A DNA stretch of 54,897 nt, taken from the IMG/VR virus record IMGVR_UViG_3300009505_000017, positions 1 to 54,897 of that record; one strand, given 5' to 3'. The notes beneath the pieces were generated by a model. It saw only the letters and a list, made by a program, of their open reading frames with translations. It searched no databases and was not told where the DNA came from. The stretch comes from a virus (Duplodnaviria > Caudoviricetes). This document shows positions 10,285 to 54,118 of the stretch, in pieces (the first letter of the stretch is position 1; every line of letters begins with the position of its first letter). The translations under genes and the position numbers were made by a program.

Positions 10285-10289
10285 ATACA

Positions 10290-11905: not shown

Positions 11906-12094
11906 ATGGCAATACAAATACACAACCATAATTCCATAAAATTTATAAATCTTTTAATGGAAAGAATAAATTCACTTAGTGATGATATTTACGAATCACT
12001 AATGGATGAAGATACTGAATCTCTAAAGTCCTCAATAAGAGAGTTGCAAATAGTTTTACGAGAAACACAAAAAACAACTGAAGATGAGTACTAA
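11906..12094 (+). CDS. Hypothetical helical protein
   Basis: ORF 11879-12094; second Met (11906) has the better A-rich context. Confidence 0.65.
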   Translation: MAIQIHNHNSIKFINLLMERINSLSDDIYESLMDEDTESLKSSIRELQIVLRETQKTTEDEY

Positions 12095-13118: not shown

Positions 13119-13120
13119 TT

Positions 13121-13216
13121 ATGAAAGATAAATATTTTACAAAAATATTTGCATGGATAATTATATTGATAGTAACTTTTTTTATTTGGTCTAGTGTTTA
13201 TACATGGATATTTTAA
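13121..13216 (+). CDS. Small membrane peptide (31 aa; not in track)
   Basis: MKDKYFTKIFAWIIILIVTFFIWSSVYTWIF, one hydrophobic helix; fills the gap between two genes. Confidence 0.55.
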   Translation: MKDKYFTKIFAWIIILIVTFFIWSSVYTWIF

Positions 13217-13548
13217 TGATTAAAAAAGAATGGCACTTTATGGATAAGGCTAAACAAAGAAAACAAACTCCAGTTTATACAGGGGTGTTGATGTATTTCC
13301 CAGATGCTATAAAAGAAATAGCACAATGCAGTTATGCAGGGCAACAACAACATAACCCTGACCTTCCGTTAAATTGGGATAGAGATAAGTCAGGAGACGA
13401 ATTAGACGCTCTTACAAGGCACTTAATGGAATGTGGCACTGTAGATTCCGATGGAGTTAGACACTCGGCTAAAGTAGCCTGGAGAGCCTTAGCTAACCTA
13501 CAAAAAGAAATTGAAAATGAAAGAACACATAACAAGTCAAATTATTAA
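13204..13548 (+). CDS. dATP/dGTP diphosphohydrolase-like protein (DUF5664 type)
   Basis: FPDAIKEIAQCSYAG..NW..DALTRHL..DSDGVRHSAKVAWRALA pattern; start uncertain (13204, 13217 region or 13240). Confidence 0.7.
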   Translation: MDILMIKKEWHFMDKAKQRKQTPVYTGVLMYFPDAIKEIAQCSYAGQQQHNPDLPLNWDRDKSGDELDALTRHLMECGTVDSDGVRHSAKVAWRALANLQKEIENERTHNKSNY

Positions 13549-37251: not shown

Positions 37252-39687
37252 TTATCTAGGTTCAAATTCAGCTAAATCAAAACCATCTAAACTATCTTCA
37301 TTTGATTCAAAACTTACAGGAGCTAAGTTGTTTTTTCTTTGCTCTATTAATTTTGATTGCTCTGTGTTAGCTTGACTTATTCTTTTAGACTTAGCTTCTT
37401 CACGTTGATTTTCTCTCATTTTCAACCCCTCAATTTCAACACCTTTTAATTTCATTTGTAACTGAAACTCTAGTTGCATTAACTCAGCTTTTATAGCAGC
37501 CTCTCCCTTCATTTTTTCTATTGAAAAAGTTGCTTTTCCTTTCTCAATTTCCATAGAAGCTTGAGTTTCCATTTGTAATTTTTGCATTGCTGTTTGAGCT
37601 GCTAGTTGTTGTGACTGCATATTTATCTGACCTTGTTGTTGGGCAGCAGCAGCTTTTGCTTGTTTTTCAGAGTCTTCTTTTGCTTTACGCCTAACCTTAA
37701 GCATCTGATTAGCAAGTTTAACATTTCTTATTTCTCTAATGTCAATTGCATCTTCTAAGTTTATACTATCCCTGCTTAAAGCGGTTTGTATATTTTGCTC
37801 TAAAAGTTTTTGTTGCTCTTCATCTGGAGCTACTTCTATGAAGATGCCAAAATCACTTAAATATAATTCAGATATTTCTTCTAAAATTCCAACATTATAC
37901 TTACCTACCTGATTAATAAATTCTTCTCTAAAATCTGCATACTCTAACAAATCAGCTACTCTACTAGATAATGCTGTACAAAGCCTTTCTGTCATTGCTA
38001 TTCCAGAGTCTAATATGTGTCTAGTTGCAGTATTACTGCTTAAAGCTGCTAGTTTTTGAAGACCGACTAAAGAATAAGAATCTGGTGTTGCTCCATCTCT
38101 AGCTTCATTTAAACCTGTTACATCTCTAAGCATAGACATATAATGATTATACGTACCTACAAGACTTTGTATTTTTCCTTGCCCTGAACTACTGTTCAAT
38201 TGTTGGATAGGTACTTTTGCTTGATTATAATCTCCGTCTTGAGTATAACTTCTACCAATAACACTTCCTGTTTGGAAAAACATTCTAAGTGCATCTTCTG
38301 GATTGTATGCTTGACCTGTTCCTAAATCTACTTCACTTAATCCATCAGCATCTATGTAAACACCATCTGGTACAACTCTTGAAATAACTTGTTGTAATTT
38401 TAAATGGGTCATTTGAATTAGATCAGCAAATGTAATCATTCTTCGTACTAAAGATTCTAAAACTCCTTTATACATTCTTGGAGCAGCAGCTAAAAACTCT
38501 GGATACACTTCTTGTGATGCAGAAGCTGGTCTAGCCATGTTCTCAGCCATCTCCCATTTAAGCATAATACTTGTACCCATAATCATAACTCCCTCATACC
38601 AAACATCAATTGTTTTAGATACTTTTTCATAATTACCTTCATCTTGCATTTCTGGAGTTGGATTAAAGCTGTCATCTTTTTCAATAACTTTTGAAGCTCC
38701 TGATGAATTTGTTTTTTTCTTATAAGTAAATGTATGGGTTGTTTTATAATTAAAGAATAAAACAGTGGCACTGTCTTTACTGAATAAACTATTATTGTAA
38801 TACTGTGCTGTATTATTGTAATCATACCAACTTTGACTATATTTTGATATTTCTTCCATATCAACCCTAGTTAAACTTGTGTCAATTTTAAGCAATTCAC
38901 TTATTGGTAAAGTTTTAATTTCACCCCAATAAAAACAATCTTTAAAATAAGGGTCTTCTGTATAACTATAAACTACATTTGCAGGATCAACATATTCAAC
39001 TTCAATTCCTGAACCAGGTTTAAAACTATGTTTGCACATTTGAATACCTAAGACCATTTGGTCATAGTAAAGTCTTTTTTGCAAATCATGGTATCTGCTT
39101 TCAGCTAAAACGGTATTTATTGCTTCTTCCTCTGCAATTTCAATAGATGGCTTGTATTTTAATTGCATATGCAAAGCAAGCTGCTCATCGTTTTCAGGAA
39201 CTTCTTCAGCACTCATTCGAAAAGTATTGACATCAAAATCTTTTTGAACTTGCTTCATTAGATCTTTAGAGATCATATCTTTTTCTAGTTGTCTTTGATA
39301 TTTACTTTTTTTATCAAGAGACATACCATCCTGGGCATAAGCGTTAATTTTAAATACTCTGTCAGCCATTCCATTAACAACTATGTCCACAAACTTTGGT
39401 ATAATTGGGACAGGAGTCCAGTCTAAATTTAAATAACTTAAATCCCCATCAATTGCTAATTCATTTTTATATTTAGCTATTGACTGCTCTCCACGAGCAT
39501 ATAATCGAAGTCTATGAAAGTCAGCCCATTGATTATAAAACCTACTTTGTCCTCCGTCTTTTCTGAACCACTCATATTGAATGGCTTGTCCTATTTGCAA
39601 CCCAAACTCAACGCTGTCTTTTTCTTTGTCAGACACGAATTGACTTGGGAAACCCTGAGGGTTTATTGCTATTTTTACATCCTCCAT
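37252..39687 (-). CDS. Portal protein
   Basis: 811 aa adjacent to terL; PIIPKFVDIVVNG, RDVTGLNEARDG, long C-terminal Q/A-rich coiled coil like a podovirus portal barrel. Confidence 0.85.
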   Translation of the reverse strand: MEDVKIAINPQGFPSQFVSDKEKDSVEFGLQIGQAIQYEWFRKDGGQSRFYNQWADFHRLRLYARGEQSIAKYKNELAIDGDLSYLNLDWTPVPIIPKFVDIVVNGMADRVFKINAYAQDGMSLDKKSKYQRQLEKDMISKDLMKQVQKDFDVNTFRMSAEEVPENDEQLALHMQLKYKPSIEIAEEEAINTVLAESRYHDLQKRLYYDQMVLGIQMCKHSFKPGSGIEVEYVDPANVVYSYTEDPYFKDCFYWGEIKTLPISELLKIDTSLTRVDMEEISKYSQSWYDYNNTAQYYNNSLFSKDSATVLFFNYKTTHTFTYKKKTNSSGASKVIEKDDSFNPTPEMQDEGNYEKVSKTIDVWYEGVMIMGTSIMLKWEMAENMARPASASQEVYPEFLAAAPRMYKGVLESLVRRMITFADLIQMTHLKLQQVISRVVPDGVYIDADGLSEVDLGTGQAYNPEDALRMFFQTGSVIGRSYTQDGDYNQAKVPIQQLNSSSGQGKIQSLVGTYNHYMSMLRDVTGLNEARDGATPDSYSLVGLQKLAALSSNTATRHILDSGIAMTERLCTALSSRVADLLEYADFREEFINQVGKYNVGILEEISELYLSDFGIFIEVAPDEEQQKLLEQNIQTALSRDSINLEDAIDIREIRNVKLANQMLKVRRKAKEDSEKQAKAAAAQQQGQINMQSQQLAAQTAMQKLQMETQASMEIEKGKATFSIEKMKGEAAIKAELMQLEFQLQMKLKGVEIEGLKMRENQREEAKSKRISQANTEQSKLIEQRKNNLAPVSFESNEDSLDGFDLAEFEPR

Positions 39688-41913
39688 TTATTTTATAATT
39701 TGGCTATAACTTCCCTTATTGTCATATCTTGCAAAGTTAAGTTTTATTTTTGATTTATTTTTAATGGGCTGGTAAAGGTTCTTCTGTATAGCCATGATAG
39801 CTAAACCAGAACTAATTGAAGCATCAAACTTTGTTCTTTTGTTTATATCAAACCTAGCCCAATCTTCTAAAGTTCTAATAAAATACATCGAACCTATAAG
39901 ATCTTTCTCTCTAAAAGTACCTGATAAATCAAATCCAACATTCTTTTCAATATAAGATTCTATTGCGGCTGCATGAGCTTGTTTTATATCTTCAGAGCTA
40001 TTAGGCATACCTCCTAATTCTTTTTCAGTTTGTGACAATTTATTATAAACCTTATCAGGCCTATTCATTGAAAAACCTCTATAACCTCTGTTTTTAAAAT
40101 GATACAACAATCTTGGTTTATTATTTTCTATTAATATTGGCATACCATAAAACACACAAGCCATTAATACATCTTCAAAAAACATTTCCGCTGTTTGTGG
40201 TCTAGCAATATATTCTAAAAAAAATTCATTAGTAGGTCCTTCATCCATGTGAAACTTAGTAACGCCATGTAAAGCACCATTAGATCCTCCACCACCTACA
40301 GTCCCAGATATATCATAACTATCACATCCAAAAGCACCTATGTGGTCGTTTTTTGGGTATTTAACTCCATTCTTTAAGTAGTATTGATTTTGTAATTGTT
40401 TTTTTGGTGTCCATGTTACATAAAATCGTCCTCTATCATTTGGAGAAAAAATAACTTCTGTATCTTTAATTCCATTTTTCCATGAAAACGAACCTCTTGT
40501 TACAAATCTATCTTTTATTAATGAATCATTGTAATCTATTTGCTGATAAAGTTTTTGAAGATTAAATAACGATTGTTTACTTTCATCTCTAAAAGCGTGA
40601 GATTCCGTACGAGGGAACTGTCTGTAATACTCGTTTAATCCATCAGGATCTGATTTAAGACCCTCAACCTCATTGTTCCAGTGATTGATAACACCTTGCT
40701 CGATTACATCTCCTAAAGGCCCTTCTATCTCTTTCCCTGGATCATCAAATACAGGATATCCGTAAACATCTATAAATCCTTCATAGTTCCATTCCATAGG
40801 GATGAAAAGTGAATATAATCCACTTTTAGTTTGACCATTCTTGTTTCTTTTGTTTACATTAGAATCTGAATATAATTTTTTAAAATTACCACCTCCTTTT
40901 TCAATAGAATTAGAAGTACTTCCCATCATACATTTTCCAATAATCTTAGATCCTAATCTAAGACAGGTCTTAGTAACTCGCCAATTGTTTAATATGTTAT
41001 CAGGTCTTTCCCATTTCCCACTTTCATCATGAGCTAATATTTTTAATTTTTCTCCATCGTAAGAGTTGTCACCTGTGTTTTTCCAATCTATTGTCGTGTC
41101 AAGCCCTTCAAGTTCTGTAGCGGCTTCATTGGCATCAAGCTTTTTTCTGGTAAGCTTGGAGGCTGGTACTCTATAGGCAAGTTCGGTCTTGGGCCTGTCC
41201 ATACCATCTTGGATCGGTTTGAAAAAGAAGGGGTAGTTGAGCGATATCGGTACGACTTTATCGGTAAACATCTTCTTAGCATCTGACCCAGTTTTTGACA
41301 ATATTCCAAAACGTGAATCTCGTGATGTGGTAGCTTCATGCACGAGTTCTGATGAGGACATAAACGAAAAGCCTGATCGTCTGTTCTTAAGATAACACAT
41401 TCCATATGACCGTATGTCTGCTTTGCAAGCTTCCCAGAATATGTAGAATAATCTATTTGATTCCCTAAAGTTTGGCTGCCCAACATCAATTTTGGTCCAG
41501 CACAAGTACATGTAGTGAGAACCAGTAATAAAAGTAGAAACCCCTTTGTTATTAAACCAAAAACCTTTTTCACGTCTTTCAAATTCTTTGTCAATATAGT
41601 CATACCATTTCTCTTTAAAGTTATCTGGATGTTTGTCCCAATCAAATACATTTTTAATTTTACTTAATTCTTTTGGATAATCTAATTTACCCCAGTAATT
41701 TTTTTTAAATTTATAAACATCTTCTTCTTTTGGTAAAGCTATTTTTAAATTTTGTATTTCATATATATCACCAATCATACCACTTTTGGATATAACAACA
41801 ATATCATATTCTTTATTATACCCATAATCCCACAATCTTTTTTTATTGTTAGATTTTAGAACCTTTTCAGGAACAATGTTATTTAGTATTTTATATAAAG
41901 TTTGTTCGTACAT
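39688..41913 (-). CDS. terL: Terminase large subunit
   Basis: Walker A LKNRRSGFS, Walker B LAHDESGK, coupling motif GSTS, nuclease FGCDSYD and terminal FDASISSG. Confidence 0.9.
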   Translation of the reverse strand: MYEQTLYKILNNIVPEKVLKSNNKKRLWDYGYNKEYDIVVISKSGMIGDIYEIQNLKIALPKEEDVYKFKKNYWGKLDYPKELSKIKNVFDWDKHPDNFKEKWYDYIDKEFERREKGFWFNNKGVSTFITGSHYMYLCWTKIDVGQPNFRESNRLFYIFWEACKADIRSYGMCYLKNRRSGFSFMSSSELVHEATTSRDSRFGILSKTGSDAKKMFTDKVVPISLNYPFFFKPIQDGMDRPKTELAYRVPASKLTRKKLDANEAATELEGLDTTIDWKNTGDNSYDGEKLKILAHDESGKWERPDNILNNWRVTKTCLRLGSKIIGKCMMGSTSNSIEKGGGNFKKLYSDSNVNKRNKNGQTKSGLYSLFIPMEWNYEGFIDVYGYPVFDDPGKEIEGPLGDVIEQGVINHWNNEVEGLKSDPDGLNEYYRQFPRTESHAFRDESKQSLFNLQKLYQQIDYNDSLIKDRFVTRGSFSWKNGIKDTEVIFSPNDRGRFYVTWTPKKQLQNQYYLKNGVKYPKNDHIGAFGCDSYDISGTVGGGGSNGALHGVTKFHMDEGPTNEFFLEYIARPQTAEMFFEDVLMACVFYGMPILIENNKPRLLYHFKNRGYRGFSMNRPDKVYNKLSQTEKELGGMPNSSEDIKQAHAAAIESYIEKNVGFDLSGTFREKDLIGSMYFIRTLEDWARFDINKRTKFDASISSGLAIMAIQKNLYQPIKNKSKIKLNFARYDNKGSYSQIIK
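41088..41603 (-). CDS. Putative nested (+1 frame) lipoprotein inside terL; spanin candidate
   Basis: Frame open for 187 codons (41651-41088); from Met at 41603: basic N-region, GFLLLLLVLTTC lipobox-like signal, Pro-rich C-terminus. Confidence 0.5.
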   Translation of the reverse strand: MTILTKNLKDVKKVFGLITKGFLLLLLVLTTCTCAGPKLMLGSQTLGNQIDYSTYSGKLAKQTYGHMECVILRTDDQAFRLCPHQNSCMKLPHHEIHVLEYCQKLGQMLRRCLPIKSYRYRSTTPSFSNRSKMVWTGPRPNLPIEYQPPSLPEKSLMPMKPLQNLKGLTRQ

Positions 41914-42200
41914 TATTTTGATCTACCTTCAGCAAAACCTTTAAATGATGCTGCTTTTGTTTCTACATTACTTTTGTCTATCATATTGTTTTCTTCTTCA
42001 ATTTTGCTTAAAATTTCAAACGCATCAAATATAGCTAACTTCTTAGATGCTGCTGCATTTTTTAATCTATCAGCTGCAATATCAGGAGACAATCCATCAA
42101 GGTCTTTTTTTAAAATACCTTCATTAGCAACTTTTATAAGCTCTTGAACAGCTTTTTTACCTGCCTTAATTATTTCTAATTTTAATTCAATATTGTTCAT
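41913..42200 (-). CDS. Probable terminase small subunit
   Basis: 95-aa helical protein coupled directly to terL. Confidence 0.55.
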   Translation of the reverse strand: MNNIELKLEIIKAGKKAVQELIKVANEGILKKDLDGLSPDIAADRLKNAAASKKLAIFDAFEILSKIEEENNMIDKSNVETKAASFKGFAEGRSK

Positions 42201-42675
42201 AGACAGTATTTTTTTTTAAAAAACAAACGTGTATTAATCTTGATTCATTATCTTCATCACCAAAGTTTTCAAAAATATTTCTTGAATGTTCTAAATGAGA
42301 AGGAAAAACAATTAACCTATTTAGTTTTGATTTTAATATACAACTTTTTTCTCCTTTATAATATAAAGTAGTTCCATCTTCTTTTGGTGGATTATAATTT
42401 AAATAAAGAATTGCAGTCAAATCACCCATCATTTCATCTGTATGAATAAAATTAGGTTCTATTTGATGTTCTGGAGATTTTCTTACAAAATTTAAAGATG
42501 AATAAAAATTAGGGTATTTTTCCAAAAGAAAAAGAACCAACTCATCTTCACCCCTTTGTCTAACATTTTTAAATAAATCTTCACCAATTTGAATATCTTC
42601 AAAACCTTTGTTAATTACATCACAAACATAACTATCAATATCTTTTATTACATTTTCATATAAGCTTACATTCAT
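42187..42675 (-). CDS. 2OG-Fe(II) oxygenase
   Basis: FIHTD (HxD), AILYLN, GTTLY, NRLIVFPSHLEHS (distal His), SRL (2OG-binding Arg). Confidence 0.85.
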   Translation of the reverse strand: MNVSLYENVIKDIDSYVCDVINKGFEDIQIGEDLFKNVRQRGEDELVLFLLEKYPNFYSSLNFVRKSPEHQIEPNFIHTDEMMGDLTAILYLNYNPPKEDGTTLYYKGEKSCILKSKLNRLIVFPSHLEHSRNIFENFGDEDNESRLIHVCFLKKNTVYEQY

Positions 42676-43235
42676 AAAGTCATTGTTATGTTTTTATCAA
42701 ACATTCGATAAAGTTTTTCACCATCTATAGTATACTCATATTCACTGTCTGGTTGGAAATAAACAACAGTTCCTTTAATAATACCTTTACTAATTAAGTA
42801 TTCATTAGGATACTTAACTAAACCCATTAATGGCTCTTCTTCTTGGTGGGTCTTAAGATAATGATTTTTTTTAGGAATAGGCTTTATCATGCAATATTTA
42901 GAATGACAAAACCATTCATCATTCTGTTTATACATATAAAACTGATCGTAATCAATAAAAAACAAGTCATCTTGAAAGAAACTTTTACCGCTTCTTTCTT
43001 TTCCTTTCATGTCATTATAATATTTAAAAACATTATGATGAACCAGCAAGGTATCTCCTGGTTTAATATTACCCTTGTAATCTATAGGGGTTTGTTGTAC
43101 AATTGCGTACCTATTGGAAACGGTATGATCTTCTTTGGAGTTGCTTATTATAAAATCAACATCTCCAATTTTTTTTGTATTATCATACCTTTTTCCATTG
43201 CAAGGTTTTACAATGAAGTAAAAAGGTGATTTCAT
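42672..43235 (-). CDS. Tandem GroES-like co-chaperonin-fold protein
   Basis: Two halves each resembling GroES (FIVKP...IKPGDTLLV and CMIKP...KGTVVYF..YTIDGEKLYRM...I). Confidence 0.55.
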   Translation of the reverse strand: MKSPFYFIVKPCNGKRYDNTKKIGDVDFIISNSKEDHTVSNRYAIVQQTPIDYKGNIKPGDTLLVHHNVFKYYNDMKGKERSGKSFFQDDLFFIDYDQFYMYKQNDEWFCHSKYCMIKPIPKKNHYLKTHQEEEPLMGLVKYPNEYLISKGIIKGTVVYFQPDSEYEYTIDGEKLYRMFDKNITMTL

Positions 43236-47463: not shown

Positions 47464-47700
47464 TTATTTTTCTGGTTCTTTTTCGGTGATTTCTCCTGAT
47501 TGTAAATTAATCACAGAGTTTTCACCGTATTTTTTTATTAAGCTTTTTTCTAAATCTGCAAAATCACTTTTAATAAAAGAAACTTGTTCAATTACTAATT
47601 GTTTTTGAAGTTCTAAATCTCCCAATTGGGTTTTAAGTTTTACAAAATTTGAGTTTAATTCTTGCAAGTTTTGTAATTCTTTCGTTTCTAAATTTTTCAT
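47464..47700 (-). CDS. Small coiled-coil protein (possible fibre chaperone)
   Basis: 78-aa heptad-rich ORF directly upstream of the fibre gene. Confidence 0.7.
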   Translation of the reverse strand: MKNLETKELQNLQELNSNFVKLKTQLGDLELQKQLVIEQVSFIKSDFADLEKSLIKKYGENSVINLQSGEITEKEPEK

Positions 47701-47740: not shown

Positions 47741-48133
47741 TTATTTATCTTTTTGTTTGGTTTTTTCCCAGGTTCTACCTACGAAATAAGCTCCATAAGT
47801 AGTTACAAGAAGTGTTTGAAAAATAGGTATATACTCCTTAGATATTTTAAACTCACCTATGTTGCCGTCAGTAAAACATAAAGCTGTAAAAATTACGGTC
47901 AAATAGATTAAAACCATAGGGCGTATATTCTTTGACAAAAAAGAATCGCTCTGCATGTCGAACTTCCAACGCTCAGTCACCTGCTCTTGCGCTTTGCTGT
48001 CTGCGTCTTCTAATATTTTTTGAACTTGTTTTTTTATTATAAGCTTTTCTTCTTCAGTAGTAGTAAGCTTATCAATAACGTCCCCAATTTCTTTTATAAC
48101 ATTTCCTGATAACCATGCAAATAGTTTTTTCAT
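47741..48133 (-). CDS. Holin (GTA 3TM-like family)
   Basis: RWKFDMQSDSFLSKNIRP, two hydrophobic helices, GAYFVGRTWEK; coupled to the amidase. Confidence 0.75.
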   Translation of the reverse strand: MKKLFAWLSGNVIKEIGDVIDKLTTTEEEKLIIKKQVQKILEDADSKAQEQVTERWKFDMQSDSFLSKNIRPMVLIYLTVIFTALCFTDGNIGEFKISKEYIPIFQTLLVTTYGAYFVGRTWEKTKQKDK

Positions 48134-48540
48134 AATCCTTTATATTCTTTAGTTGCGTCAAAACTTGGACAAGCTTTGGGTGAAAAATCCCTATGACCAT
48201 GTATAATAGCTTTAGGGAATGTATTTTTAAGAAATCTAAGCAGCAAAAGAAAACTTGCTATCTGCTCACTTGTTCTATTGTCTTCTGGACACATTTTAGA
48301 ATCTACGCCACCTGCATAACAAACACCTATACTATTTTGGTTATGACCTTTGGTGTGCGCTCCTGATTGGTCTAATGGTCTTCCAAACTCTATTTTACCA
48401 TCTCTTTTAATAAAAAAATGGTAGCCAATACCTGACCACCCTCTTTGCTTATGCCATTCATCAATTGTATTTGCATCCACATCCATTGAAGGAGTAGTTG
48501 CTGAACAATGAATGATTATTTTATTTATTTTTCTTTTCAT
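48130..48540 (-). CDS. Endolysin, N-acetylmuramoyl-L-alanine amidase (T7 lysozyme-like)
   Basis: IIIHCSAT, GIGYHF, GAHTKGHNQNSIGVCYAGG, GHRDFSPKACPSF; start at MKRKINK. Confidence 0.92.
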   Translation of the reverse strand: MKRKINKIIIHCSATTPSMDVDANTIDEWHKQRGWSGIGYHFFIKRDGKIEFGRPLDQSGAHTKGHNQNSIGVCYAGGVDSKMCPEDNRTSEQIASFLLLLRFLKNTFPKAIIHGHRDFSPKACPSFDATKEYKGL

Positions 48541-48682
48541 TATAATTAATCCATATTCTTTGAGCCGTATACACAATCGAGGCTGATAATAGAATTAATT
48601 TTAAAGCCATTTCAATTTGCGTAAATGACACAACCAGACTTAAAAAGTTTATAACATATATTTTTATATCCTGCATTGTCAT
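48521..48682 (-). CDS. Small two-helix membrane protein, holin/antiholin candidate (53 aa; not in track)
   Basis: MTMQDIKIYVINFLSLVVSFTQIEMALKLILLSASIVYTAQRIWINYNEKKNK; immediately upstream of the amidase. Confidence 0.65.
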   Translation of the reverse strand: MTMQDIKIYVINFLSLVVSFTQIEMALKLILLSASIVYTAQRIWINYNEKKNK

Positions 48683-49007: not shown

Positions 49008-49163
49008 TTATTTGTTATAAGGGAAATTTCTGTTTAAACTGTCTTTTCTTTTAGAACAGCCACAAGATTTTCCTGTTACTTTTTCATATACTTTAGCTAC
49101 TTTGTCTGCTCCAACTGCTTTAGCTACTTTTTCTACAGTGTCTCCGAATCCTTTTGATTTCAT
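49008..49163 (-). CDS. Small basic protein with CGC motif (51 aa; not in track)
   Basis: MKSKGFGDTVEKVAKAVG..SCGCSKRKDSLNRNFPYNK. Confidence 0.75.
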   Translation of the reverse strand: MKSKGFGDTVEKVAKAVGADKVAKVYEKVTGKSCGCSKRKDSLNRNFPYNK

Positions 49164-49321
49164 TTTACGTCTTCTTTTTTATGAGAACAAGAACAAAATT
49201 TATAAGAACATTCTTGAATTTCTTTAAAACTTATAGATTTTAACAAATTGTTCCAACTGCATTGAAATTTGCACCAAACTTTTTGTATCCATAAACCTAA
49301 TTTTATAAAAGCTTTACCCAT
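49160..49321 (-). CDS. Small Cys-rich protein (53 aa; not in track)
   Basis: MGKAFIKLGLWIQKVWCKFQCSWN..CSYKFCSC; ATGA-coupled. Confidence 0.65.
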   Translation of the reverse strand: MGKAFIKLGLWIQKVWCKFQCSWNNLLKSISFKEIQECSYKFCSCSHKKEDVK

Positions 49322-49323
49322 TT

Positions 49324-49524
49324 TTATTTTTTCTTGTTTTTAAGTATTTTATCAATAGCTACATTCTTTATGTTGATAGTATCATAAGAAGGTACATTTG
49401 TCAAATTTGGATGAGTATTACTTTTTTGATACTTAGCCAAACCCTTATCAATTTTTTCTTGAAAATTTTTTTTACCCTTTAAACATTTTTTTAATGCATC
49501 TCCGATTAATCCTTTACAACTCAT
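49324..49524 (-). CDS. Small basic protein
   Basis: 66 aa, Lys-rich, N-terminal Cx11C; -7 element TATATTTG upstream at 49550-49543. Confidence 0.7.
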   Translation of the reverse strand: MSCKGLIGDALKKCLKGKKNFQEKIDKGLAKYQKSNTHPNLTNVPSYDTINIKNVAIDKILKNKKK

Positions 49525-49550
49525 AACTTAAAATTTATTCTACAAATATA

Positions 49551-49841
49551 CTAATATTTTCCTTGTCTAGTTTTAGGACTAGACTTTGTTGAACCACCCT
49601 TCCCAGCCCATAGGTTTTTACACGCCCAGTATCTTGCAGTTAACTTTGATTTTGCTGTTCCACATTTATGACGTGCCTTGAAGCTCTTTCGTGCAGCTGC
49701 TGAATAATTATGTCCATATCCTTTTGCTCCAAAGTGAATAAGCTTTTCTTTTCCTGACTCACAACCTTTAACCATTTTCTTTTTACCTGCTCTATCAGAA
49801 GCAGTAGGCTTATTGCAAGCCATCTTTTTCTTATCTGCCAT
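49551..49841 (-). CDS. Small basic conserved phage protein
   Basis: MADKKKMACNKP..IHFGAKGY..RKSFKARHKC..TARYWACKNLW; start moved from 49907 because another ORF occupies that space. Confidence 0.8.
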   Translation of the reverse strand: MADKKKMACNKPTASDRAGKKKMVKGCESGKEKLIHFGAKGYGHNYSAAARKSFKARHKCGTAKSKLTARYWACKNLWAGKGGSTKSSPKTRQGKY

Positions 49842-49845
49842 TTCA

Positions 49846-49971
49846 TTATTTCTTACCGCACTTTGAATATGCACTATTTTTAATAGTTTTTTCAGAAGGT
49901 AATCCATTTTTTTCAGGATTAACTCCGCTTTTCTTTGCTGCTGTAAAATAAGGTTTTAATGATTTTTTCAT
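49846..49971 (-). CDS. Small basic protein (41 aa; not in track)
   Basis: MKKSLKPYFTAAKKSGVNPEKNGLPSEKTIKNSAYSKCGKK; TAATG-coupled to the upstream gene. Confidence 0.6.
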   Translation of the reverse strand: MKKSLKPYFTAAKKSGVNPEKNGLPSEKTIKNSAYSKCGKK

Positions 49972-50219
49972 TATTTAGTATATTTTTTAGTTACTTTTGC
50001 TTTTTTTGTATTTGACACAAACTGCTTTTTACCGCCTGACGCCTTCTTTTTTCTTGCTGTCTTAGCCCTTTCTGCTTTACTTAAACTCTTAGCCTTAGCC
50101 AAAGGCAGACACCTGTCTGGGTTTTTCTTGTTCTTGCTAGTACCGCATGCGCCCATTATAGACCCATCTGTACCTATGCGAACCCACTTCTCATTTCTCC
50201 ATTTAGCAAGCTCACCCAT
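49971..50219 (-). CDS. Small basic conserved phage protein
   Basis: LAKWRNEKWV..CG..RCLP..AKSLSKAER..TARKK. Confidence 0.8.
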   Translation of the reverse strand: MGELAKWRNEKWVRIGTDGSIMGACGTSKNKKNPDRCLPLAKAKSLSKAERAKTARKKKASGGKKQFVSNTKKAKVTKKYTK

Positions 50220-50374
50220 TATTTCTTTTTTCCTTTACCGTAGTTAGGATCTTTACAATACTTACTAGCAGCCATATTAGCATAGGCAGAAGGATATTTG
50301 TCAAAAGTTTTTTTTGCCCAAGATATTCCTGCTGCACAAATTTTATTACCTTTTTTCTTAACCTTCTTTGCCAT
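50219..50374 (-). CDS. Small basic protein with YPSAYAN motif (51 aa; not in track)
   Basis: MAKKVKKKGNKICAAGISWAKKTFDKYPSAYANMAASKYCKDPNYGKGKKK; TAATG-coupled. Confidence 0.75.
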   Translation of the reverse strand: MAKKVKKKGNKICAAGISWAKKTFDKYPSAYANMAASKYCKDPNYGKGKKK

Positions 50375-50376
50375 TA

Positions 50377-51114
50377 TTATAAGTTTATTTCAAAAACTAA
50401 ATACAACTCCATTTCTGCATCATCTGTTCCTATCGCTCCGTTTTCTACTCCACTAATATTTATAATTTCTCCTGCTGCTAGACTTACATTTCCGTCCCAT
50501 TTTTTAGTTGGGAAAGTGCCAGTATCAGAAGCTGTTAAAGATAAAGTAGGTAATGCCGCTTTAAATTGATAACTAGACGTCTGTGTTGTAGAAAGTGCAG
50601 TGTTTGTCATAGAATAAACATTTACATCCCATGTACTATTTGCTAATGGAATATCAACAGGTGTTGCATGTATCCATTTCATTTGAGCCTTTATAAGCTT
50701 ACCATCAAATGGCATTTGAAATACAGAACTATTTGACGCTACAGGCGAAGCTGATGCTGCAAACTCTAATGTATCTCCAAATATTCCAGGGGACCCACCA
50801 AATAAATTCTTCCAAATTCCAACTACAGACAATAAAGCTCCTTGCGATCTTGATATATTAACCTCACTACCAGTCCCTTGACTTATTAAAATACCTGCCT
50901 CCCCAATTAAAACAACATTGTCAGATGTAGAATCACTTCCAGTTAAGGTAATAGTAAATTCATTGGTATCAGTTTCTGTTCCTGATAAATCATATTTAGT
51001 TCCAACTAAGTTAGGGTCTATCTTTATGTTGTCTAATCCATCGTATCCAACTAAAGCCTCTACTTGAGCTTGATTTGTTCTTAATTCAAATTGTGAAAAT
51101 TTTAAATTTGCCAT
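50377..51114 (-). CDS. Virion surface/fibre-like protein
   Basis: MANLKFSQF anchor-like N-terminus; C-terminal beta domain similar to an internal domain of the tail fibre. Confidence 0.65.
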   Translation of the reverse strand: MANLKFSQFELRTNQAQVEALVGYDGLDNIKIDPNLVGTKYDLSGTETDTNEFTITLTGSDSTSDNVVLIGEAGILISQGTGSEVNISRSQGALLSVVGIWKNLFGGSPGIFGDTLEFAASASPVASNSSVFQMPFDGKLIKAQMKWIHATPVDIPLANSTWDVNVYSMTNTALSTTQTSSYQFKAALPTLSLTASDTGTFPTKKWDGNVSLAAGEIINISGVENGAIGTDDAEMELYLVFEINL

Positions 51115-51131
51115 TGTTTTTTTTTTATATA

Positions 51132-51290
51132 TTATTCGCAGAGTTCTGGTATCATTCTACTATCTTCGATTACTGTTTCTTGTTCACAGAACTCATCAAG
51201 CTCCGTTATTATAAAGCATAGTTCTGGTATGTCTTCATTTCTTTTGTCTTGAAATGGTATGCCATTTCCTATTGCTGATCCTAATCCCAT
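51132..51290 (-). CDS. Small acidic protein (52 aa; not in track)
   Basis: MGLGSAIGNGIPFQDK..IPELC..IPELCE; TAATG-coupled. Confidence 0.65.
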   Translation of the reverse strand: MGLGSAIGNGIPFQDKRNEDIPELCFIITELDEFCEQETVIEDSRMIPELCE

Positions 51291-51484
51291 TATACTTTCT
51301 TCTTTAACGCTGGAGGCGTTGGGTTTAATGATTCTCGTTTTGCTTTTTGATAAGAAAGCATTTCAAAATTTTTATTATTAAAATTACTTTCAGATCTTTC
51401 TTTAGCCACATGTGTTTTTAGTAGCTTATTAGCTTCTTCACATTTAGCTCTTTTTTTTGTATCTTTTATTGATTCGCAACCCAT
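51290..51484 (-). CDS. Small basic protein
   Basis: 64 aa, N-terminal Cx11C like the 49324-49524 protein. Confidence 0.7.
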   Translation of the reverse strand: MGCESIKDTKKRAKCEEANKLLKTHVAKERSESNFNNKNFEMLSYQKAKRESLNPTPPALKKKV

Positions 51485-51502
51485 AATTTTATTTTTTAGT
51501 TT

Positions 51503-51814
51503 TTATTTACCTCCAGTATTACCTTTGTTTCTTCTTCCTGCTCCTTTTTTACCTCTCGCTCTTCTGTCTCCTGCTGTATTACTTTTACTTCCTCTATTCT
51601 TAGAGGCCTTTTCTAATACAACTTTACCGTTTTTATGGGACACATCTAGTCCATCGTAGTTCCCATATGTTCCAAATTGACGATTTTTTCTATTATCATC
51701 AACTCTTTGCTTAATAGACTTACGTTTTTTGTTGTATTTAGCCTGATATTTACGATGTTTCTTACGTGCTTCAGGGTTATCTCTATAAAATTTAGCAGTT
51801 CTGCTTAATGCCAT
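51503..51814 (-). CDS. Very basic protein with degenerate HNH-like motif
   Basis: Arg/Lys-rich; DGLDVSHKNG..ASKNR; start at MALSRT. Confidence 0.65.
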   Translation of the reverse strand: MALSRTAKFYRDNPEARKKHRKYQAKYNKKRKSIKQRVDDNRKNRQFGTYGNYDGLDVSHKNGKVVLEKASKNRGSKSNTAGDRRARGKKGAGRRNKGNTGGK

Positions 51815-51825
51815 AATAAAAAAGT

Positions 51826-51841
51826 TATCTTTGCAAAGATA
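51826..51841. promoter_or_regulatory. Palindromic pair of opposed -7 promoter elements TATCTTTG|CAAAGATA
   Basis: Perfect 16-bp palindrome made of two TAnnTTTG elements between divergent genes. Confidence 0.75.
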
Positions 51842-51854
51842 CAAATTTAATCTA

Positions 51855-52283
51855 ATGAAATTTTCGCCACAAAACGACTACCTGAAATACTGGAAAGTTG
51901 TAAGACAATGGGCTAGGTCCAAATATAACCTCTCTACATCTGAAATAGAGATGATGCTATTCTTATATAGCGAAGGATACTTTACAAGAAAACAATTTGA
52001 AGAGTATAATGAAATAATGTCCTGGGACAAAAGGAGATTTGAAAACTTGCTAAGAGAAAAATGGATAATCGTATGGAGAAAACGAAAAGGCAGGGAGTCT
52101 ACTTTATATGAACTTGGATTTAGTGGGAAGCGCTTATGCGCTTCGATTTATAAAAAGCTAAATAAAAAAGAAATGGTGTCAGAACACGAAAGAACTAACC
52201 CCATTTTTAATTTAGATGCTGATTATAGCAAAAAAGTATACAGAAAGATTATAAAAAAAATGAATAAAGAAATGAAACTATAG
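51855..52283 (+). CDS. Winged-helix (MarR-like) DNA-binding protein
   Basis: YNLSTSEIEMMLFLY..RFENLLREKWI..LYELGFSGKRL; the only + strand gene in the right arm. Confidence 0.6.
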   Translation: MKFSPQNDYLKYWKVVRQWARSKYNLSTSEIEMMLFLYSEGYFTRKQFEEYNEIMSWDKRRFENLLREKWIIVWRKRKGRESTLYELGFSGKRLCASIYKKLNKKEMVSEHERTNPIFNLDADYSKKVYRKIIKKMNKEMKL

Positions 52284-52535
52284 CACTACAACTATATCTC
52301 TTTCAGATATTATAGTTACTACCTCATCTTCTAACATCATCTTGTGACCTGCATTCTTATCGTAATAAATGAAGTCACCTTCATTTACAACATAAACATC
52401 AGTCCCTGGAATCTTTATCAAACCTTTTTTGTATCTTAGCTGGTTGCTATCGTCTGACGTTAGTAATATTCCTGACTGTGTTTTTTGTTCTGATTGAACT
52501 TCTGTAATAACAATGTACTTACCTACTGCTTTCAT
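52278..52535 (-). CDS. groES: Co-chaperonin GroES
   Basis: KTQSGILL mobile loop, VNEGDFIYY, IISERDIVVVL; directly downstream of groEL. Confidence 0.88.
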   Translation of the reverse strand: MKAVGKYIVITEVQSEQKTQSGILLTSDDSNQLRYKKGLIKIPGTDVYVVNEGDFIYYDKNAGHKMMLEDEVVTIISERDIVVVL

Positions 52536-52546
52536 TTTATTTAAGT

Positions 52547-54118
52547 TTAATTTCTTTTCATTGTTACAATCGCATTAGTACTTAGTATCGTTGTAGCGAC
52601 ACTTACTGCGTTTCTTAGTGCATTCTTAGTGACTTTAGCAGGATCAATGATTCCCATTGCGTACATATCTCCATACTTTTTATTCTTAACATCATATCCA
52701 TGATTATAAGGAACATCTGCACACTCGCAAATAATATCTCTTACTTCTTTTACATTTTCACCTGCATTAATTAATATCTGCTCTAAAGGCGCAATTAAAG
52801 CTCCATATAAAATATCTTCAGCCCATCCTTCTCCTAATGATTCTGCACATCTTAACAAAGCCAAGCCTCCACCAGGAAGAATTCCTTCTTCAACTGCAGA
52901 ACGCACAGCGCAAACTGCGTCTTCTACTCTATCAAATTTTTCTTTTTGCTCAATATCAGAGTTTCCTCCTACATAAATGACTCCAACTCCACCTGACAAC
53001 AAAGCAATACGATTACTTATGAAGTCTCTTTCGTTTTTGTTCTTATTATTTTCTCTTTGAGTCTTAAGTTCTTGTATTCTCTTTGATGTCTCTGAATTGT
53101 CAGAGCCTTCTTTTAGAATAACACTAGATGAATTTCCAATAATAATCTTGTTAGCATGACCTAAGTCTTCCATTGTTAGACTTCCTAAGTTATCACCTTG
53201 TGATTCGCTGAAATATTTTGCTCCTGTAGAAAGAGCTATGTCTGAAAGTAATTCATTGGTCTTATATCCAAATGATGGTGGGATAATATTACATAACTTC
53301 AAATTATTCTGAACTACATTGGCAGCAAGAGTGTTTACTACGTTTTGAGCGCAGTTACCTATAATCAATAGTTTCTTGTTATTGTTTATAACAGGTTTTA
53401 ATATTGATTCAATTTGAAGAATGTTTGTAATCTCCATGTCAGTAATCAAAATCTCTACATCATCTAATATACATTCATCGTTTCTGTGGTTGTTTACAAA
53501 TAACTTTGAAGTATAACCTCTATCAATCTTAATACCCTTAGTAATGTCGTAGTAAGTCTGCTCAGTCTTGCTGTTCTCAACAGTTAAAACTCCGTCTTTC
53601 CCCAAATCCTTATAAGCAGATGAAATCATCTTACCAATATCTGGATCATTGTTAGCTGAAATAGTAGCAACATCCTTAAGAGTCTTTCCTGTAACTTTCT
53701 TTGAAGTCTTGTCAAGTGTCTCAATAACCTTTTCAGATAATTTATTTATATCCCTAATTAATTGAGTCGTGTTTACGTTGTCCTCTCTTTTTAATAACTG
53801 CATTCCCTCTTTTACAAGAGATTCAGTTAAAACAATAGCAGTAGTTGTTCCGTCTCCTGCTGAGGTCGCTGTTCTTTCAGCCGCCTCTTTCATCATACGC
53901 ACAGCCAGGTTCTCGACTGGGTCTTCTAAGTCTATTGATTTTGCAACCGTTACTCCGTCTTTAGTAACCGTTATGCCATGTGTATGGTTAGGAGACTCAA
54001 TAAGTACAGTCCTACCTAAAGGACCTAAAGTACTTTTTACCGCTTTTGAAATTTTAGTTATTCCATTAAGCAATTTATCTCTTCCCTCTTGCTCAAATGC
54101 TAGTTCTTTTGGATTCAT
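52547..54118 (-). CDS. groEL: Chaperonin GroEL (phage-encoded)
   Basis: TLGPLGR, VTKDGVTVAK, AGDGTTTA, EEGILPGGG, GIIDPAKV; lacks the GGM tail. Confidence 0.97.
   Translation of the reverse strand: MNPKELAFEQEGRDKLLNGITKISKAVKSTLGPLGRTVLIESPNHTHGITVTKDGVTVAKSIDLEDPVENLAVRMMKEAAERTATSAGDGTTTAIVLTESLVKEGMQLLKREDNVNTTQLIRDINKLSEKVIETLDKTSKKVTGKTLKDVATISANNDPDIGKMISSAYKDLGKDGVLTVENSKTEQTYYDITKGIKIDRGYTSKLFVNNHRNDECILDDVEILITDMEITNILQIESILKPVINNNKKLLIIGNCAQNVVNTLAANVVQNNLKLCNIIPPSFGYKTNELLSDIALSTGAKYFSESQGDNLGSLTMEDLGHANKIIIGNSSSVILKEGSDNSETSKRIQELKTQRENNKNKNERDFISNRIALLSGGVGVIYVGGNSDIEQKEKFDRVEDAVCAVRSAVEEGILPGGGLALLRCAESLGEGWAEDILYGALIAPLEQILINAGENVKEVRDIICECADVPYNHGYDVKNKKYGDMYAMGIIDPAKVTKNALRNAVSVATTILSTNAIVTMKRN

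What the first reader, a model, noticed from the sequence alone, without database searches (positions are those of the whole stretch)
41088..41651. Long lipoprotein-like ORF hidden in the +1 frame of the terminase ATPase domain: possible missing spanin
Seen: the +1 frame stays open for 187 codons, twice the next longest same-strand nested ORF in the track (93 aa), across the conserved Walker A region. terL codons here are visibly GC-richer than in the rest of the gene. The product has a basic N-region, a hydrophobic core and a lipobox-like Cys (KGFLLLLLVLTTC/TC), several more Cys and a Pro-rich tail. Established: lambda Rz1 is a Pro-rich outer-membrane lipoprotein nested in the +1 frame of Rz, and phages of Gram-negative hosts usually need outer-membrane disruption. 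No spanin is evident near the holin and amidase. Inference: an overprinted lysis or exclusion lipoprotein embedded in terL, which would tie it to packaging gene expression.
Basis: partly seen in the sequence, partly recalled or inferred. Interest (0 to 1): 0.85.

Follow-up and report, generated by a model that had tools for sequence, protein, structure and literature searches.

The report
Conserved hidden gene inside phage terminase

Summary
The ORF is real (41088-41651, minus strand, +1 frame of terL) and far from chance. Of 82 terL genes (window plus 81 relatives), 52 keep the same +1 frame open for 146-235 codons. About 10 stops are expected from terL's own protein and codon usage; 0-4 are seen. 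All 52 lie in one 70-row clade. The 12 basal relatives, 18 nested relatives and 4 of 4 cultured flavobacterial phages carry 5-14 stops, which suggests one birth and about 7-9 losses.

Selection is frame-specific and protein-like. There is a conserved start (ATG 41603 here, 171 aa), a basic N-region, a Leu-rich core and a selected C-T-C-S-G-P motif. The tail is kept hydrophilic, although its sequence is free to vary. AlphaFold gives one N-terminal helix and then disorder.

No family matches it. The only homologues found are the same ORF and terL/ORF frame chimeras.

The lipoprotein-spanin reading fails its tests. The -1 residue is T/I/L, there is no C-terminal membrane segment, the ORF is outside the lysis cassette, and it was lost repeatedly.

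Best reading: a de novo overprinted, late-expressed, exported or membrane-anchored accessory protein. Its envelope or lysis role is inferred, and translation is not shown.

The parts
39688..41913 (-). terL (terminase large subunit), 741 aa; the ancestral frame that hosts the nested gene
   Evidence: phrog_6681 'terminase large subunit', E 8.8e-168. The portal gene (phrog_6547) lies directly downstream. 87 phage records match by tblastn, and those annotated are called terL. No Pfam or PDB sequence match.
41088..41651 (-).
   Evidence: The ATG at 41651 (47 codons before the first Cys) occurs in only 2 of 52 open homologues (WIN, L022).
41091..41603 (-). Probable true coding sequence of the nested gene, 171 aa, from the conserved start ATG 41603 (stop at 41088-41090)
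   Evidence: All 52 open homologues have a start 24-31 codons before the first Cys: ATG at -31 in 30, ATG at -27/-26 in 14, only TTG at -28/-24 in 8. Database gene calls begin at the same Met. The start context scores at the 90th percentile of 822 out-of-frame internal ATGs and the 15th percentile of true starts.
41544..41603 (-). Basic N-region (residues 1-20, MTILTKNLKDVKKVFGLITK)
   Evidence: 5 K/R against 1 D/E. Net charge of the N-flank is +3.2 against +0.8 for the C-flank, and N exceeds C in 42 of 46 sequences. Lys at nested positions 9 and 20 is enriched against closed relatives (p 2e-5 and 9e-5).
41496..41543 (-). Hydrophobic core plus Cys motif (residues 21-36, GFLLLLLVLTTCTCAG); Cys32 = 41508-41510, Cys34 = 41502-41504
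   Evidence: The open clade has L at -9, -8, -6, -5 and -3, T at +2 (44/46) and Cys at +3 (43/46). Closed relatives encode the same terL peptide but show stop/Q/H/I/Y at these sites (p 1e-5 to 5e-10). terL synonymous variation is reduced here (obs/exp 0.79-0.85). AlphaFold gives a helix at residues 2-34. Kyte-Doolittle 19-residue maximum is 2.15.
41091..41495 (-). Hydrophilic, basic, Pro/Ser/Thr/Gln/Arg-rich tail (residues 37-171), predicted disordered
   Evidence: pLDDT below 50 for residues 36-171. GRAVY is -0.66 in open against +0.05 (closed inside the clade) and +0.25 (closed basal). At terL codons that cannot make +1 stops, third-position T is 0.217 against 0.36-0.42. There is no amino-acid sequence constraint (obs/exp 1.16-1.26).
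41000..41500 (.). Patch of raised G+C within terL, the nucleotide footprint of the second frame
   Evidence: GC 0.395-0.46 against about 0.21-0.35 around it. The raised local GC is found only in homologues that keep the frame open and has decayed in lineages that lost it.
47741..48576 (-). Context only: holin (47741-48133) and amidase endolysin (48130-48576), same strand, about 6 kb upstream of terL
   Evidence: phrog_3427 holin, E 6.9e-28, and phrog_822 amidase, E 1.3e-62. Holin presence does not track the nested ORF.

Best explanation
The finding is a real protein-coding gene born de novo by overprinting in the +1 frame of terL, at the base of one clade of uncultured marine phages related to Flavobacteriia podophages.

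**Product (inferred).** It is translated from the late mRNA from its own start (ATG 41603 here, 171 aa; 146-235 codons open in relatives). The product has signal-peptide-like architecture: a Lys-rich N-region, a Leu-rich core of about 10 residues, and a small-residue stretch C-T-C-S/A-G-P. This is followed by 130-190 residues of intrinsically disordered, cationic tail rich in Ser, Thr, Pro, Gln and Arg.

**Topology (inferred).** The charge balance predicts N-in/C-out. The tail would be exported to the periplasm and stay held at the inner membrane by the helix, or be released, or be atypically lipidated at the CxC.

**What is shown.**
- The frame is kept open.
- The hydrophobic core, the second Cys and the hydrophilic tail composition are each selected.
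- The gene is dispensable: it was lost repeatedly and then decays.

**What is inferred.** Translation, export, and the role. My best guess for the role is an accessory factor acting on the host envelope late in infection. I put a helper of outer-membrane or envelope disruption at lysis at about 30%, and a block to superinfection at about 25%. The rest is unknown.

The confidence given is for the gene being real and encoding a membrane-targeted protein with a disordered tail, not for the role.
For: **1. The frame is kept open.**
- 52 of 82 terL genes keep the same +1 frame open for 146-235 codons.
- Gene-wide codon resampling expects 8.5-12.8 stops in the 192-codon region, and 0-4 are observed. 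P <= 0.002 in 52 of 52.
- Shuffling only the region's own synonymous codons still expects 2.7-7.5 stops. P <= 0.05 in 43 of 52.
- The 30 closed genes have 6-14 stops, as expected.

**2. Phylogeny.**
- All 52 open rows lie in one 70-row clade (support 99). The 12 basal rows are closed, and 18 closed rows are nested inside the clade.
- This needs at least 10 state changes, of which 7 are forced by well-supported branches.
- The nested closed rows stay inside the clade in a tree built from the overlap region alone (clade support 100). That points to decay in place, not replacement.
- Their composition has reverted: third-position T is 0.36 and tail GRAVY +0.05.

**3. Selection at the protein level, with terL residues held the same.**
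- The Leu core, T at +2, Cys at +3 and Pro at +6 are enriched.
- The tail shifts from F/L/I to S/P/T/R/Q at many sites.
- Third-position T is depleted even at codons that cannot create stops (0.217 against 0.387).

**4. Start codon.** All 52 open rows have a start 24-31 codons before the Cys. A terL Val-to-Tyr change at the clade base creates the ATG.

**5. Control.** The 93-aa +1 ORF in the portal gene is open in 0 of 68 homologues.

**6. Structure and topology.**
- AlphaFold with a 46-sequence alignment gives a helix at 2-34 and the rest below pLDDT 50.
- The N-flank is more positive than the C-flank in 42 of 46 sequences, and there is only one hydrophobic segment.

**7. Origin.**
- No family matches it in Pfam, PHROGs, NCBIfam or PADLOC.
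- The 15 of 37 word-search hits that I read are this ORF or frame chimeras with terL. The 153 profile hits were not read, and their genomic context is not available.
Against: - There is no direct evidence of translation. Contigs from two metatranscriptome libraries cover parts of 40894-41541, but contigs show neither strand nor frame, and DNA carry-over is possible.
- The start context is only moderate: 15th percentile of the window's true starts.
- Most of the protein (the tail) shows no amino-acid sequence constraint. That is unusual for a protein with a specific partner.
- The basic charge of the tail is not itself selected: net charge is +10.8 in open rows against +9.0 in the hypothetical translation of closed rows.
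- The hydrophobic stretch is short for a membrane span, and the small-residue motif fits neither signal peptidase I nor II cleanly. SignalP, LipoP and TMHMM were not available.
- No gene co-varies with it. The holin is present in 26 of 29 informative open contigs and 6 of 8 informative closed-inside contigs. No replacement gene was seen in closed genomes. The functional guess therefore rests on architecture and timing alone.
- Tree inference used FastTree only. Support values are SH-like.
Confidence: 0.72

Rival explanations
1. One reading: an Rz1-like outer-membrane lipoprotein (o-spanin, or another lysis or exclusion lipoprotein). It would be lipidated at Cys32 or Cys34 and would supply the outer-membrane step of lysis that the phage otherwise lacks.
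For: - Basic N-region, Leu-rich core, then Cys.
- At both positions before a Cys, the smaller of the two residues terL allows is preferred. T against I is 30:10 at -1 of Cys32 and 44:0 at -1 of Cys34, whereas closed relatives show 10:18 and 13:15.
- The second Cys is itself selected, 43/46 against 11/28.
- The tail is Pro-enriched (6.5% against 1.9%).
- No canonical lipoprotein ORF was found in the window or in 6 related genomes.
- Related cultured flavophages mostly have no annotated spanin (PMC8776804, passages read).
- Precedent, recalled and not tested here: lambda Rz1 is embedded in the +1 frame of Rz.
Against: - The residue at -1 is T/I/L in 46 of 46 thinned sequences, never G/A/S. The lipobox consensus is recalled from DOLOP/PROSITE and comes from no call.
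- In the Phe variant of terL, Ser was available at -1, yet Leu is used in 6 of 6.
- No i-spanin partner was found, and the gene is not in the lysis cassette.
- At 171-235 aa it is several times longer than typical o-spanins (recalled).
- It was lost about 7-9 times, and basal, cultured and closed relatives do without it and without any canonical lipoprotein.
- It does not co-vary with the holin.
Confidence: 0.12
2. A phiX174 E-like or Sgl-like protein. The conserved N-terminal membrane helix is the active part and binds a host inner-membrane enzyme or the phage holin. The basic tail stays in the cytoplasm (N-out/C-in) and only supplies bulk or stability.
For: - It has the same layout as E, which is embedded in the +1 frame of a morphogenesis gene.
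- Constraint is concentrated on the N-terminal hydrophobic segment, with a basic tail free to vary.
- A selected Pro lies just after the helix (26/46 against 4/28).
[quoted passage not shown] The rest is recalled.
Against: - The N-flank is more positive than the C-flank in 42 of 46 sequences, which predicts N-in/C-out.
- The phage already has a holin and an amidase, so a single-gene lysis protein is not needed.
- The tail is under compositional selection for hydrophilicity, so it is not mere filler.
- No sequence similarity to any known Sgl is implied or was found.
Confidence: 0.1
3. Not an independent gene. The +1 frame would be reached by programmed ribosomal frameshifting from terL, giving a fusion of the TerL N-domain with a membrane anchor. 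Alternatively the open frame would be a by-product of nucleotide-level selection (a GC patch, a pac site, RNA structure or a recombined segment).
For: - Public protein sets contain chimeras of the terL N-terminus joined to the nested frame (P0001, P0003, P0004, P0024, P0032, P0037).
- A T5 run lies just upstream of the core.
- The region is a distinct GC patch.
Against: - The junctions of the chimeras differ from one to the next, and some switch back into the terL frame. This is what indel errors or error-tolerant gene callers give.
- 17 of 52 open homologues have a +1 stop directly before their start codon, 28 codons before the Cys. All 52 have their own start.
- The V-F codons that make the T run are no commoner in open than in closed rows (V 33/46 against 17/28; F 35/46 against 16/28).
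- The signal is frame-specific. The +2 frame has 13-33 stops in the region.
- Third positions are driven towards T in the core and away from T in the tail. A nucleotide-level cause does not predict this.
- The within-region codon shuffle still rejects chance.
Confidence: 0.06

Closest known systems
Lambda Rz1 (o-spanin embedded in the +1 frame of Rz)
   Same: Wholly embedded in the +1 frame of another late phage gene. N-terminal basic and hydrophobic signal followed by Cys. Pro-enriched, unstructured mature part. Further Cys residues.
   Different: Rz1 sits inside its own functional partner in the lysis cassette, has a canonical lipobox and is far shorter (recalled). Here the host gene is terL, the -1 residue is T/I/L, the product is 171-235 aa, no i-spanin is seen, and the gene is dispensable across the clade.
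PhiX174 lysis protein E (embedded in the +1 frame of scaffolding gene D) and ssRNA-phage Sgl proteins
   Same: De novo overprinted genes inside essential morphogenesis or replication genes. One N-terminal hydrophobic helix carries the constraint, and a basic tail tolerates change. Standard annotation misses them (PMC7693330, abstract seen; reference titles).
   Different: Those belong to tiny phages without a holin-endolysin pair and are 37-91 aa (partly recalled). This is a 55-kb tailed phage with a holin and an amidase. The predicted topology is N-in/C-out, and the tail is under compositional selection.
Overprinted (de novo) viral accessory genes in general
   Same: Restricted to a sub-clade of the host gene's tree. 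Encodes a largely disordered protein. Shifted codon composition in the overlap. Repeated loss. The review PMC8227390 (abstract and passages) and preprint 10.1101/229690 (abstract listing) describe these traits.
   Different: Most documented cases are in small eukaryotic viruses or small phages. My three full-text searches found no terL-embedded gene in a tailed phage.
Unimolecular spanin (T1 gp11 type)
   Same: N-terminal signal with Cys, and an extended periplasmic segment.
   Different: A u-spanin needs a C-terminal membrane segment (recalled). The tail here has none: maximum 19-residue hydropathy beyond residue 50 is 0.05.

Membership tests
Overprinted (de novo, embedded) protein-coding gene | Alternative frame kept open far beyond chance, given the host gene's protein and codon usage | tested here: met
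   0-4 stops against 8.5-12.8 expected. P <= 0.002 in 52 of 52 open homologues, and a within-region shuffle gives P <= 0.05 in 43 of 52. The portal-ORF control is open in 0 of 68.
Overprinted (de novo, embedded) protein-coding gene | Narrower phylogenetic spread than the host gene; no free-standing homologue | tested here: met
   Confined to one 70-row clade of terL and absent from 4 of 4 cultured relatives. The 15 of 37 word-search hits that I read are the same ORF or terL chimeras. The 153 profile hits were not read, and their genomic context could not be fetched, so a free-standing copy is not strictly excluded.
Overprinted (de novo, embedded) protein-coding gene | Selection on the encoded protein (not only on stops) | tested here: met
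   Leu core, second Cys and small residues are selected. terL synonymous variation is down to 0.79-0.85 over the N-part. The tail is kept hydrophilic, and this decays after loss.
Overprinted (de novo, embedded) protein-coding gene | Product is made (translation shown) | not testable with these tools
   Only contigs from RNA libraries cover part of the region. No Ribo-seq or proteome is available.
o-spanin (Rz1-like outer-membrane lipoprotein) | Signal peptidase II signal with canonical lipobox ([LVI][ASTVI][GAS]C; consensus recalled) | tested here: not met
   The -1 residue is T30/I10/L6 before Cys32 and T44/S2 before Cys34. Only the 2 Ser rows fit at -1. LipoP and SignalP were not available.
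o-spanin (Rz1-like outer-membrane lipoprotein) | Paired with an i-spanin gene (embedded, overlapping or adjacent) in the lysis cassette | tested here: not met
   The host gene is terL, about 6 kb from the holin and amidase. Next to the lysis genes lies only a 78-aa coiled-coil-like protein without a hydrophobic segment.
u-spanin (T1 gp11-like) | N-terminal lipoprotein signal plus C-terminal transmembrane segment | tested here: not met
   There is a single hydrophobic segment at residues 14-32. Tail maximum hydropathy is 0.05, and the tail is predicted disordered.
Single-gene lysis proteins (phiX174 E / Sgl) | Embedded small membrane protein that is the phage's only lysis function | tested here: not met
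   Being embedded and having a membrane helix are met. However, the phage has a holin and an amidase, and the gene is dispensable in the clade. Lytic activity is not testable here.
Terminase large subunit (host gene) | Homology to terL families; position next to the portal gene; ATPase P-loop | tested here: inconclusive
   PHROG terL at E 8.8e-168 and portal adjacent; annotated terL in RefSeq relatives. There is no Pfam or PDB sequence match, and the AlphaFold model is poor in the ATPase part. The Walker A position therefore rests on my reading of motifs.

The most novel reading that the evidence does not exclude
A gene born from scratch inside the terminase gene has become a new kind of late-acting envelope effector. 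It would be an exported, disulfide- or lipid-tethered, cationic disordered protein that helps breach the outer membrane, standing in for spanins in phages of Flavobacteriia, most of which have none recognised. Alternatively it would time lysis. Its dose would be coupled to packaging-gene expression.
Probability: 0.2. Interest if true: 0.85.

Novelty: new variant of a known kind. Interest (0 to 1): 0.72.

Why it matters
- Long genes hidden inside other genes are discarded by standard annotation of tailed phages. This is a clean case supported by dozens of diverged lineages: a 170-235-codon gene inside one of the most conserved and most used phage marker genes.
- It shows gene birth, maintenance and repeated decay on a single tree.
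- It gives a worked recipe for finding more such genes: stop depletion against codon-shuffled nulls, plus composition contrasts between carriers and non-carriers.
- terL-based phylogenies and codon analyses of this clade are distorted in the overlap.
- If the product acts on the envelope, it bears on how phages of Flavobacteriia get through the outer membrane without recognisable spanins.
- Near-identical sequence is held at half or more of the sampled words by 14 runs from 10 studies of marine and marine-sediment metagenomes. Metaproteomic tests are therefore feasible.

Tried and rejected
**Leads that went nowhere**
- Co-variation with the holin. From 13 genomes it looked as if lineages that lost the ORF had also lost the phrog_3427 holin: 0 of 3 against 6 of 6 open and 4 of 4 basal. 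After refetching 80 loci with 10-kb flanks, I counted as informative only contigs with the holin found or at least 3 kb beyond the p78 marker. The holin is present in 26 of 29 open, 6 of 8 closed-inside and 7 of 9 basal contigs, so there is no association. The remaining 34 contigs were too short and were dropped.
- Replacement gene. A gene-content matrix of 13 genomes shows no family present in closed genomes and absent from open ones that could replace the ORF. Many of these contigs are incomplete.
- Amidase as a marker. It was found in 0 of 5 closed and 2 of 5 open records. This is uninformative because the lysis enzymes differ and the contigs are incomplete.
- Lipobox scan. It covered ATG starts only and used my own loose pattern. 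It returned only two implausible nested hits. It is crude and cannot exclude atypical lipoproteins.
- terL fold. The AlphaFold model has mean pLDDT 44, so I ran no fold search on it. The Walker A position stays unverified.
- Sequence searches of PDB and Pfam at E <= 1 gave nothing for terL.
- Excess terL amino-acid change at the birth of the ORF. There are 7 fixed differences in 172 overlap codons against 13 in 569 outside. This is suggestive only and was not tested further.
- RNA libraries. Contigs from X15 and X16 cover parts of the region. I do not count this as proof of transcription.
- Three natural variants inside the ORF are compatible with it but too few to weigh.
- Bacteroidetes Q-rule for signal peptidase I (PMC5837995, abstract listing only). 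The conserved Gln44 lies about 13 residues after the core, too far for a cleavage site, so I dropped the idea.
- Literature. Three full-text searches found no report of a gene embedded in terL. The one hit with 'nested gene' and 'large terminase' (PMC4276943, passages) concerns the tail chaperone frameshift.
- Supplements were not consulted. SI file 7 of PMC8776804, on the lysis genes of cultured flavophages, could bear on the spanin question.


Full report
**1.

The window is a whole IMG/VR virus record of 54,897 bases, estimated 91% complete. The gene at 39688..41913 (-) is the large terminase. It matches phrog_6681 at E 8.8e-168, and a portal gene (phrog_6547) follows directly. Its closest named relatives are phages of Flavobacterium (44% identity), Cellulophaga (36-38%) and Tenacibaculum (32%), plus one uncultured podovirus at 68%.

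The ORF at 41088..41651 (-) is there, 187 aa. It begins 262 nt into terL and so lies in the +1 frame. In that frame terL carries 41 stops. The longest open run is 192 codons and the next is 33. The next longest same-strand nested ORF in the window is 93 aa. G+C rises to 0.41-0.46 at 41000-41399, against 0.21-0.35 elsewhere in the gene.

**2. It is not chance, and it is conserved**

A scan of IMG/VR returned 80 terL relatives at 70-90% protein identity. These are the best 80 of more than 600 matches. With the window and MW202828 that makes 82 genes.

- After protein-guided codon alignment, 52 of 82 keep the same +1 frame open for 146-235 codons (median 203). The other 30 have 6-14 stops there.
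- Resampling each gene's codons from its own usage outside the region predicts 7.7-13.6 stops for every sequence. The open group has 0-4, with P <= 0.002 in 52 of 52.
- Shuffling only the region's own synonymous codons still predicts 2.7-7.5 stops. P <= 0.05 in 43 of 52 and P <= 0.01 in 33 of 52.
- In the closed group, observed and expected counts agree.
- The +2 frame has 13-33 stops in the same stretch.
- As a control, the 93-aa +1 ORF inside the portal gene is open in the window alone, 0 of 68 homologues.

**3. One birth, several deaths**

- A FastTree of TerL, built without the overlapped columns, places all 52 open genes in one 70-row clade (support 99).
- The 12 rows outside that clade are all closed. 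18 closed rows are scattered inside it.
- The tree needs at least 10 changes of state. Well-supported branches force 7 of them.
- In a tree of the overlap region alone, the same 70-row clade returns (support 100). The inner closed rows stay inside it, so they lost the frame in place and did not import a basal segment.
- Those rows have drifted most of the way back to the basal composition.
- Some inner closed rows keep long remnants, such as 138, 112 and 107 codons.
- Four of four cultured relatives (elemoE, phi19:3, phi38:1, Gundel_1) have 9-14 stops.
- A terL Val-to-Tyr change fixed at the base of the clade creates the nested ATG. An Ile-to-Asn change in the K-x-RRSGFS motif removes a site that is a +1 stop in 10 of 12 basal genes.

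**4. The selection is on a protein**

I compared 46 thinned open genes with 28 thinned closed genes that encode the same terL residues.

*The N-terminal part*
- The terL peptide PTYITGTHYMYLQW is equally conserved in both groups.
- In open genes the +1 reading is always L-L-x-L-L-[VA]-L-[IT]-[TIL]-C-T-C-[SNA]-G.
- In closed genes the same positions give stops, Gln, His, Glu, Ile or Tyr.
- The first Cys is forced by terL Met-Tyr. The second Cys is not forced: 43/46 against 11/28.
- Other selected residues are Thr between the two Cys (44/46 against 13/28), Leu at -5 (45/46 against 9/28) and Pro at +6 (26/46 against 4/28).
- terL synonymous variation falls to 0.79-0.85 of expectation only over terL codons 106-150. 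This is the nested N-region, core and motif.

*The tail*
- Across the tail the ratio is 1.16-1.26, so the sequence itself is free.
- The composition is not free. At terL codons that cannot create +1 stops, third-position T is 0.217 in open genes, against 0.387 in closed genes and 0.384 outside the overlap. C plus G doubles.
- This turns Phe, Leu and Ile into Ser, Pro, Thr, Arg and Gln at many sites.
- The result is a tail GRAVY of -0.66 against +0.05 and +0.25, and Pro at 6.5% against 1.9%.
- Net positive charge is similar in both groups, so it comes with the frame.

**5. Start and architecture**

- All 52 open genes have a start 24-31 codons before the first Cys. It is ATG at -31 in 30, ATG at -27/-26 in 14, and only TTG at -28/-24 in 8.
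- In the window this is ATG 41603, giving 171 aa. The upstream ATG 41651 is shared with only one other sequence.
- Its context scores at the 90th percentile of 822 out-of-frame internal ATGs, but only the 15th percentile of the window's true starts.
- The product has 5 K/R against 1 D/E in residues 1-20 and one hydrophobic segment (residues 14-32). It has none later. It carries 7 Cys and 13 Pro, and its pI is 9.8.
- The N-flank is more positive than the C-flank in 42 of 46 sequences. By the positive-inside rule this predicts an exported C-terminus (the rule is established knowledge).
- AlphaFold2 with the 46-sequence alignment gives one helix (residues 2-34, pLDDT 53-70). Residues 36-171 are below 50.

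**6. Relatives of the protein**

- Pfam, PHROGs, NCBIfam and PADLOC give nothing.
- A word-based search found 37 database proteins. The 15 I read are either this ORF called from the same Met (186-216 aa, on contigs up to 65 kb) or chimeras that switch between the terL and nested frames at varying points.
- A profile search of 1.84 billion cluster representatives found 153 hits, 81 of them at E <= 1e-30. Many begin at profile position 1 or 5-6.
- The ORF is therefore sometimes called by pipelines, always without a name. Genomic context for these hits could not be fetched.

**7. Testing the spanin idea**

- The window has an amidase (48130-48576) and a holin (47741-48133) on the same strand, about 6 kb upstream of terL.
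- My loose lipobox scan finds no credible lipoprotein ORF in the window, in 4 near-complete closed genomes or in 2 open ones.
- The whole family therefore lacks a recognisable spanin, including members without the nested gene.
- The nested protein fails the lipobox at -1 and has no C-terminal membrane segment. It is not in the lysis cassette, and it is dispensable.
- Holin presence does not track it.
- In the cultured relatives, Bartlau et al. list only a peptidase for Gundel and an amidase with two membrane proteins for Calle. They annotate spanins only in unrelated isolates (PMC8776804, passages).
- What keeps a lipidation variant alive is the preference for Thr over Ile before both Cys, together with the selected second Cys.

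**8. Reading**

The data show a de novo overprinted gene that is maintained by selection and repeatedly lost. It encodes a signal-peptide-like or signal-anchor N-terminus and a disordered hydrophilic tail.

Its layout recalls Rz1 (embedded, signal plus Cys, Pro-rich). Even more, it recalls phiX174 E (embedded in a morphogenesis gene, constraint on the N-terminal helix, basic tolerant tail). It meets the defining tests of neither family.

Expression with late genes and predicted export point to an envelope role late in infection. That step is inference.

Three literature searches found no terL-embedded gene.

Noticed in passing
window 52278-54118 and 42672-43235: The phage encodes a GroEL-like chaperonin (523 aa, 52547-54118) with an adjacent GroES-like gene (85 aa, 52278-52535). 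A second, 187-aa protein matches a PHROG named co-chaperonin GroES (phrog_13932, E 2.6e-21) just upstream of terL. The 187-aa gene is present in all 13 genomes compared. The GroEL and 85-aa GroES names are my reading of the translations and of MW202828's annotation.
   Followed up: partly
window 49008-51844: A run of small, very Lys/Arg- and Cys-rich proteins (51-118 aa), for example 49551-49907, 49971-50219, 50219-50374 and 51503-51844. One of them contains another nested same-strand ORF (49640-49846, 68 aa). Function unknown.
   Followed up: no
window 38583-38864: The 93-aa +1-frame ORF inside the portal gene, the second longest nested ORF, is not conserved. It is open in 0 of 68 homologous portal genes, which carry 2-11 stops.
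   Followed up: yes
window 39688-41913 (terL protein): This terL family has no Pfam match and no PDB sequence match, even with a 17-sequence profile. AlphaFold folds residues about 10-140 confidently (pLDDT up to 94) but not the presumed ATPase and nuclease parts. The N-terminal domain may be a family-specific addition.
   Followed up: partly
database proteins P0001, P0003, P0004, P0024, P0031, P0032, P0034, P0037: Public protein sets hold chimeras that start in the terL frame and continue in the nested frame, or the reverse, with different junctions. These are most likely indel errors or error-tolerant gene calling, helped by the long open second frame.
   Followed up: partly
window 40800-42300: Near-identical sequence is held at half or more of the sampled words by 14 runs from 10 studies (marine, marine-sediment and viral metagenomes plus one coded organism, 2014-2025). 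Two metatranscriptome libraries hold smaller shares of 0.22-0.28. The phage type seems widespread.
   Followed up: partly
window 1-13548 against genomes G001-G004: The window shares its replication-side genes (for example 6136-8568, 8989-10284 and 3581-4269) with the basal closed genomes. It does not share them with the other open genomes, although its terL groups with the open clade. This is modular mosaicism.
   Followed up: no
window 47464-47700: A 78-aa protein with no hydrophobic segment and a sequence that looks coiled-coil sits between the holin and the tail fibre. It is conserved in all 13 genomes compared and is a fixed marker about 1 kb upstream of terL in most relatives. No family matches it.
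   Followed up: partly
window 42187-42675: A 162-aa protein with weak 2OG-Fe(II) oxygenase similarity (Pfam E 6.5e-4, below the curated cut-off; several PHROG hits) lies between the GroES-like gene and the putative small terminase. It is present in only 2 of 13 genomes.
   Followed up: no
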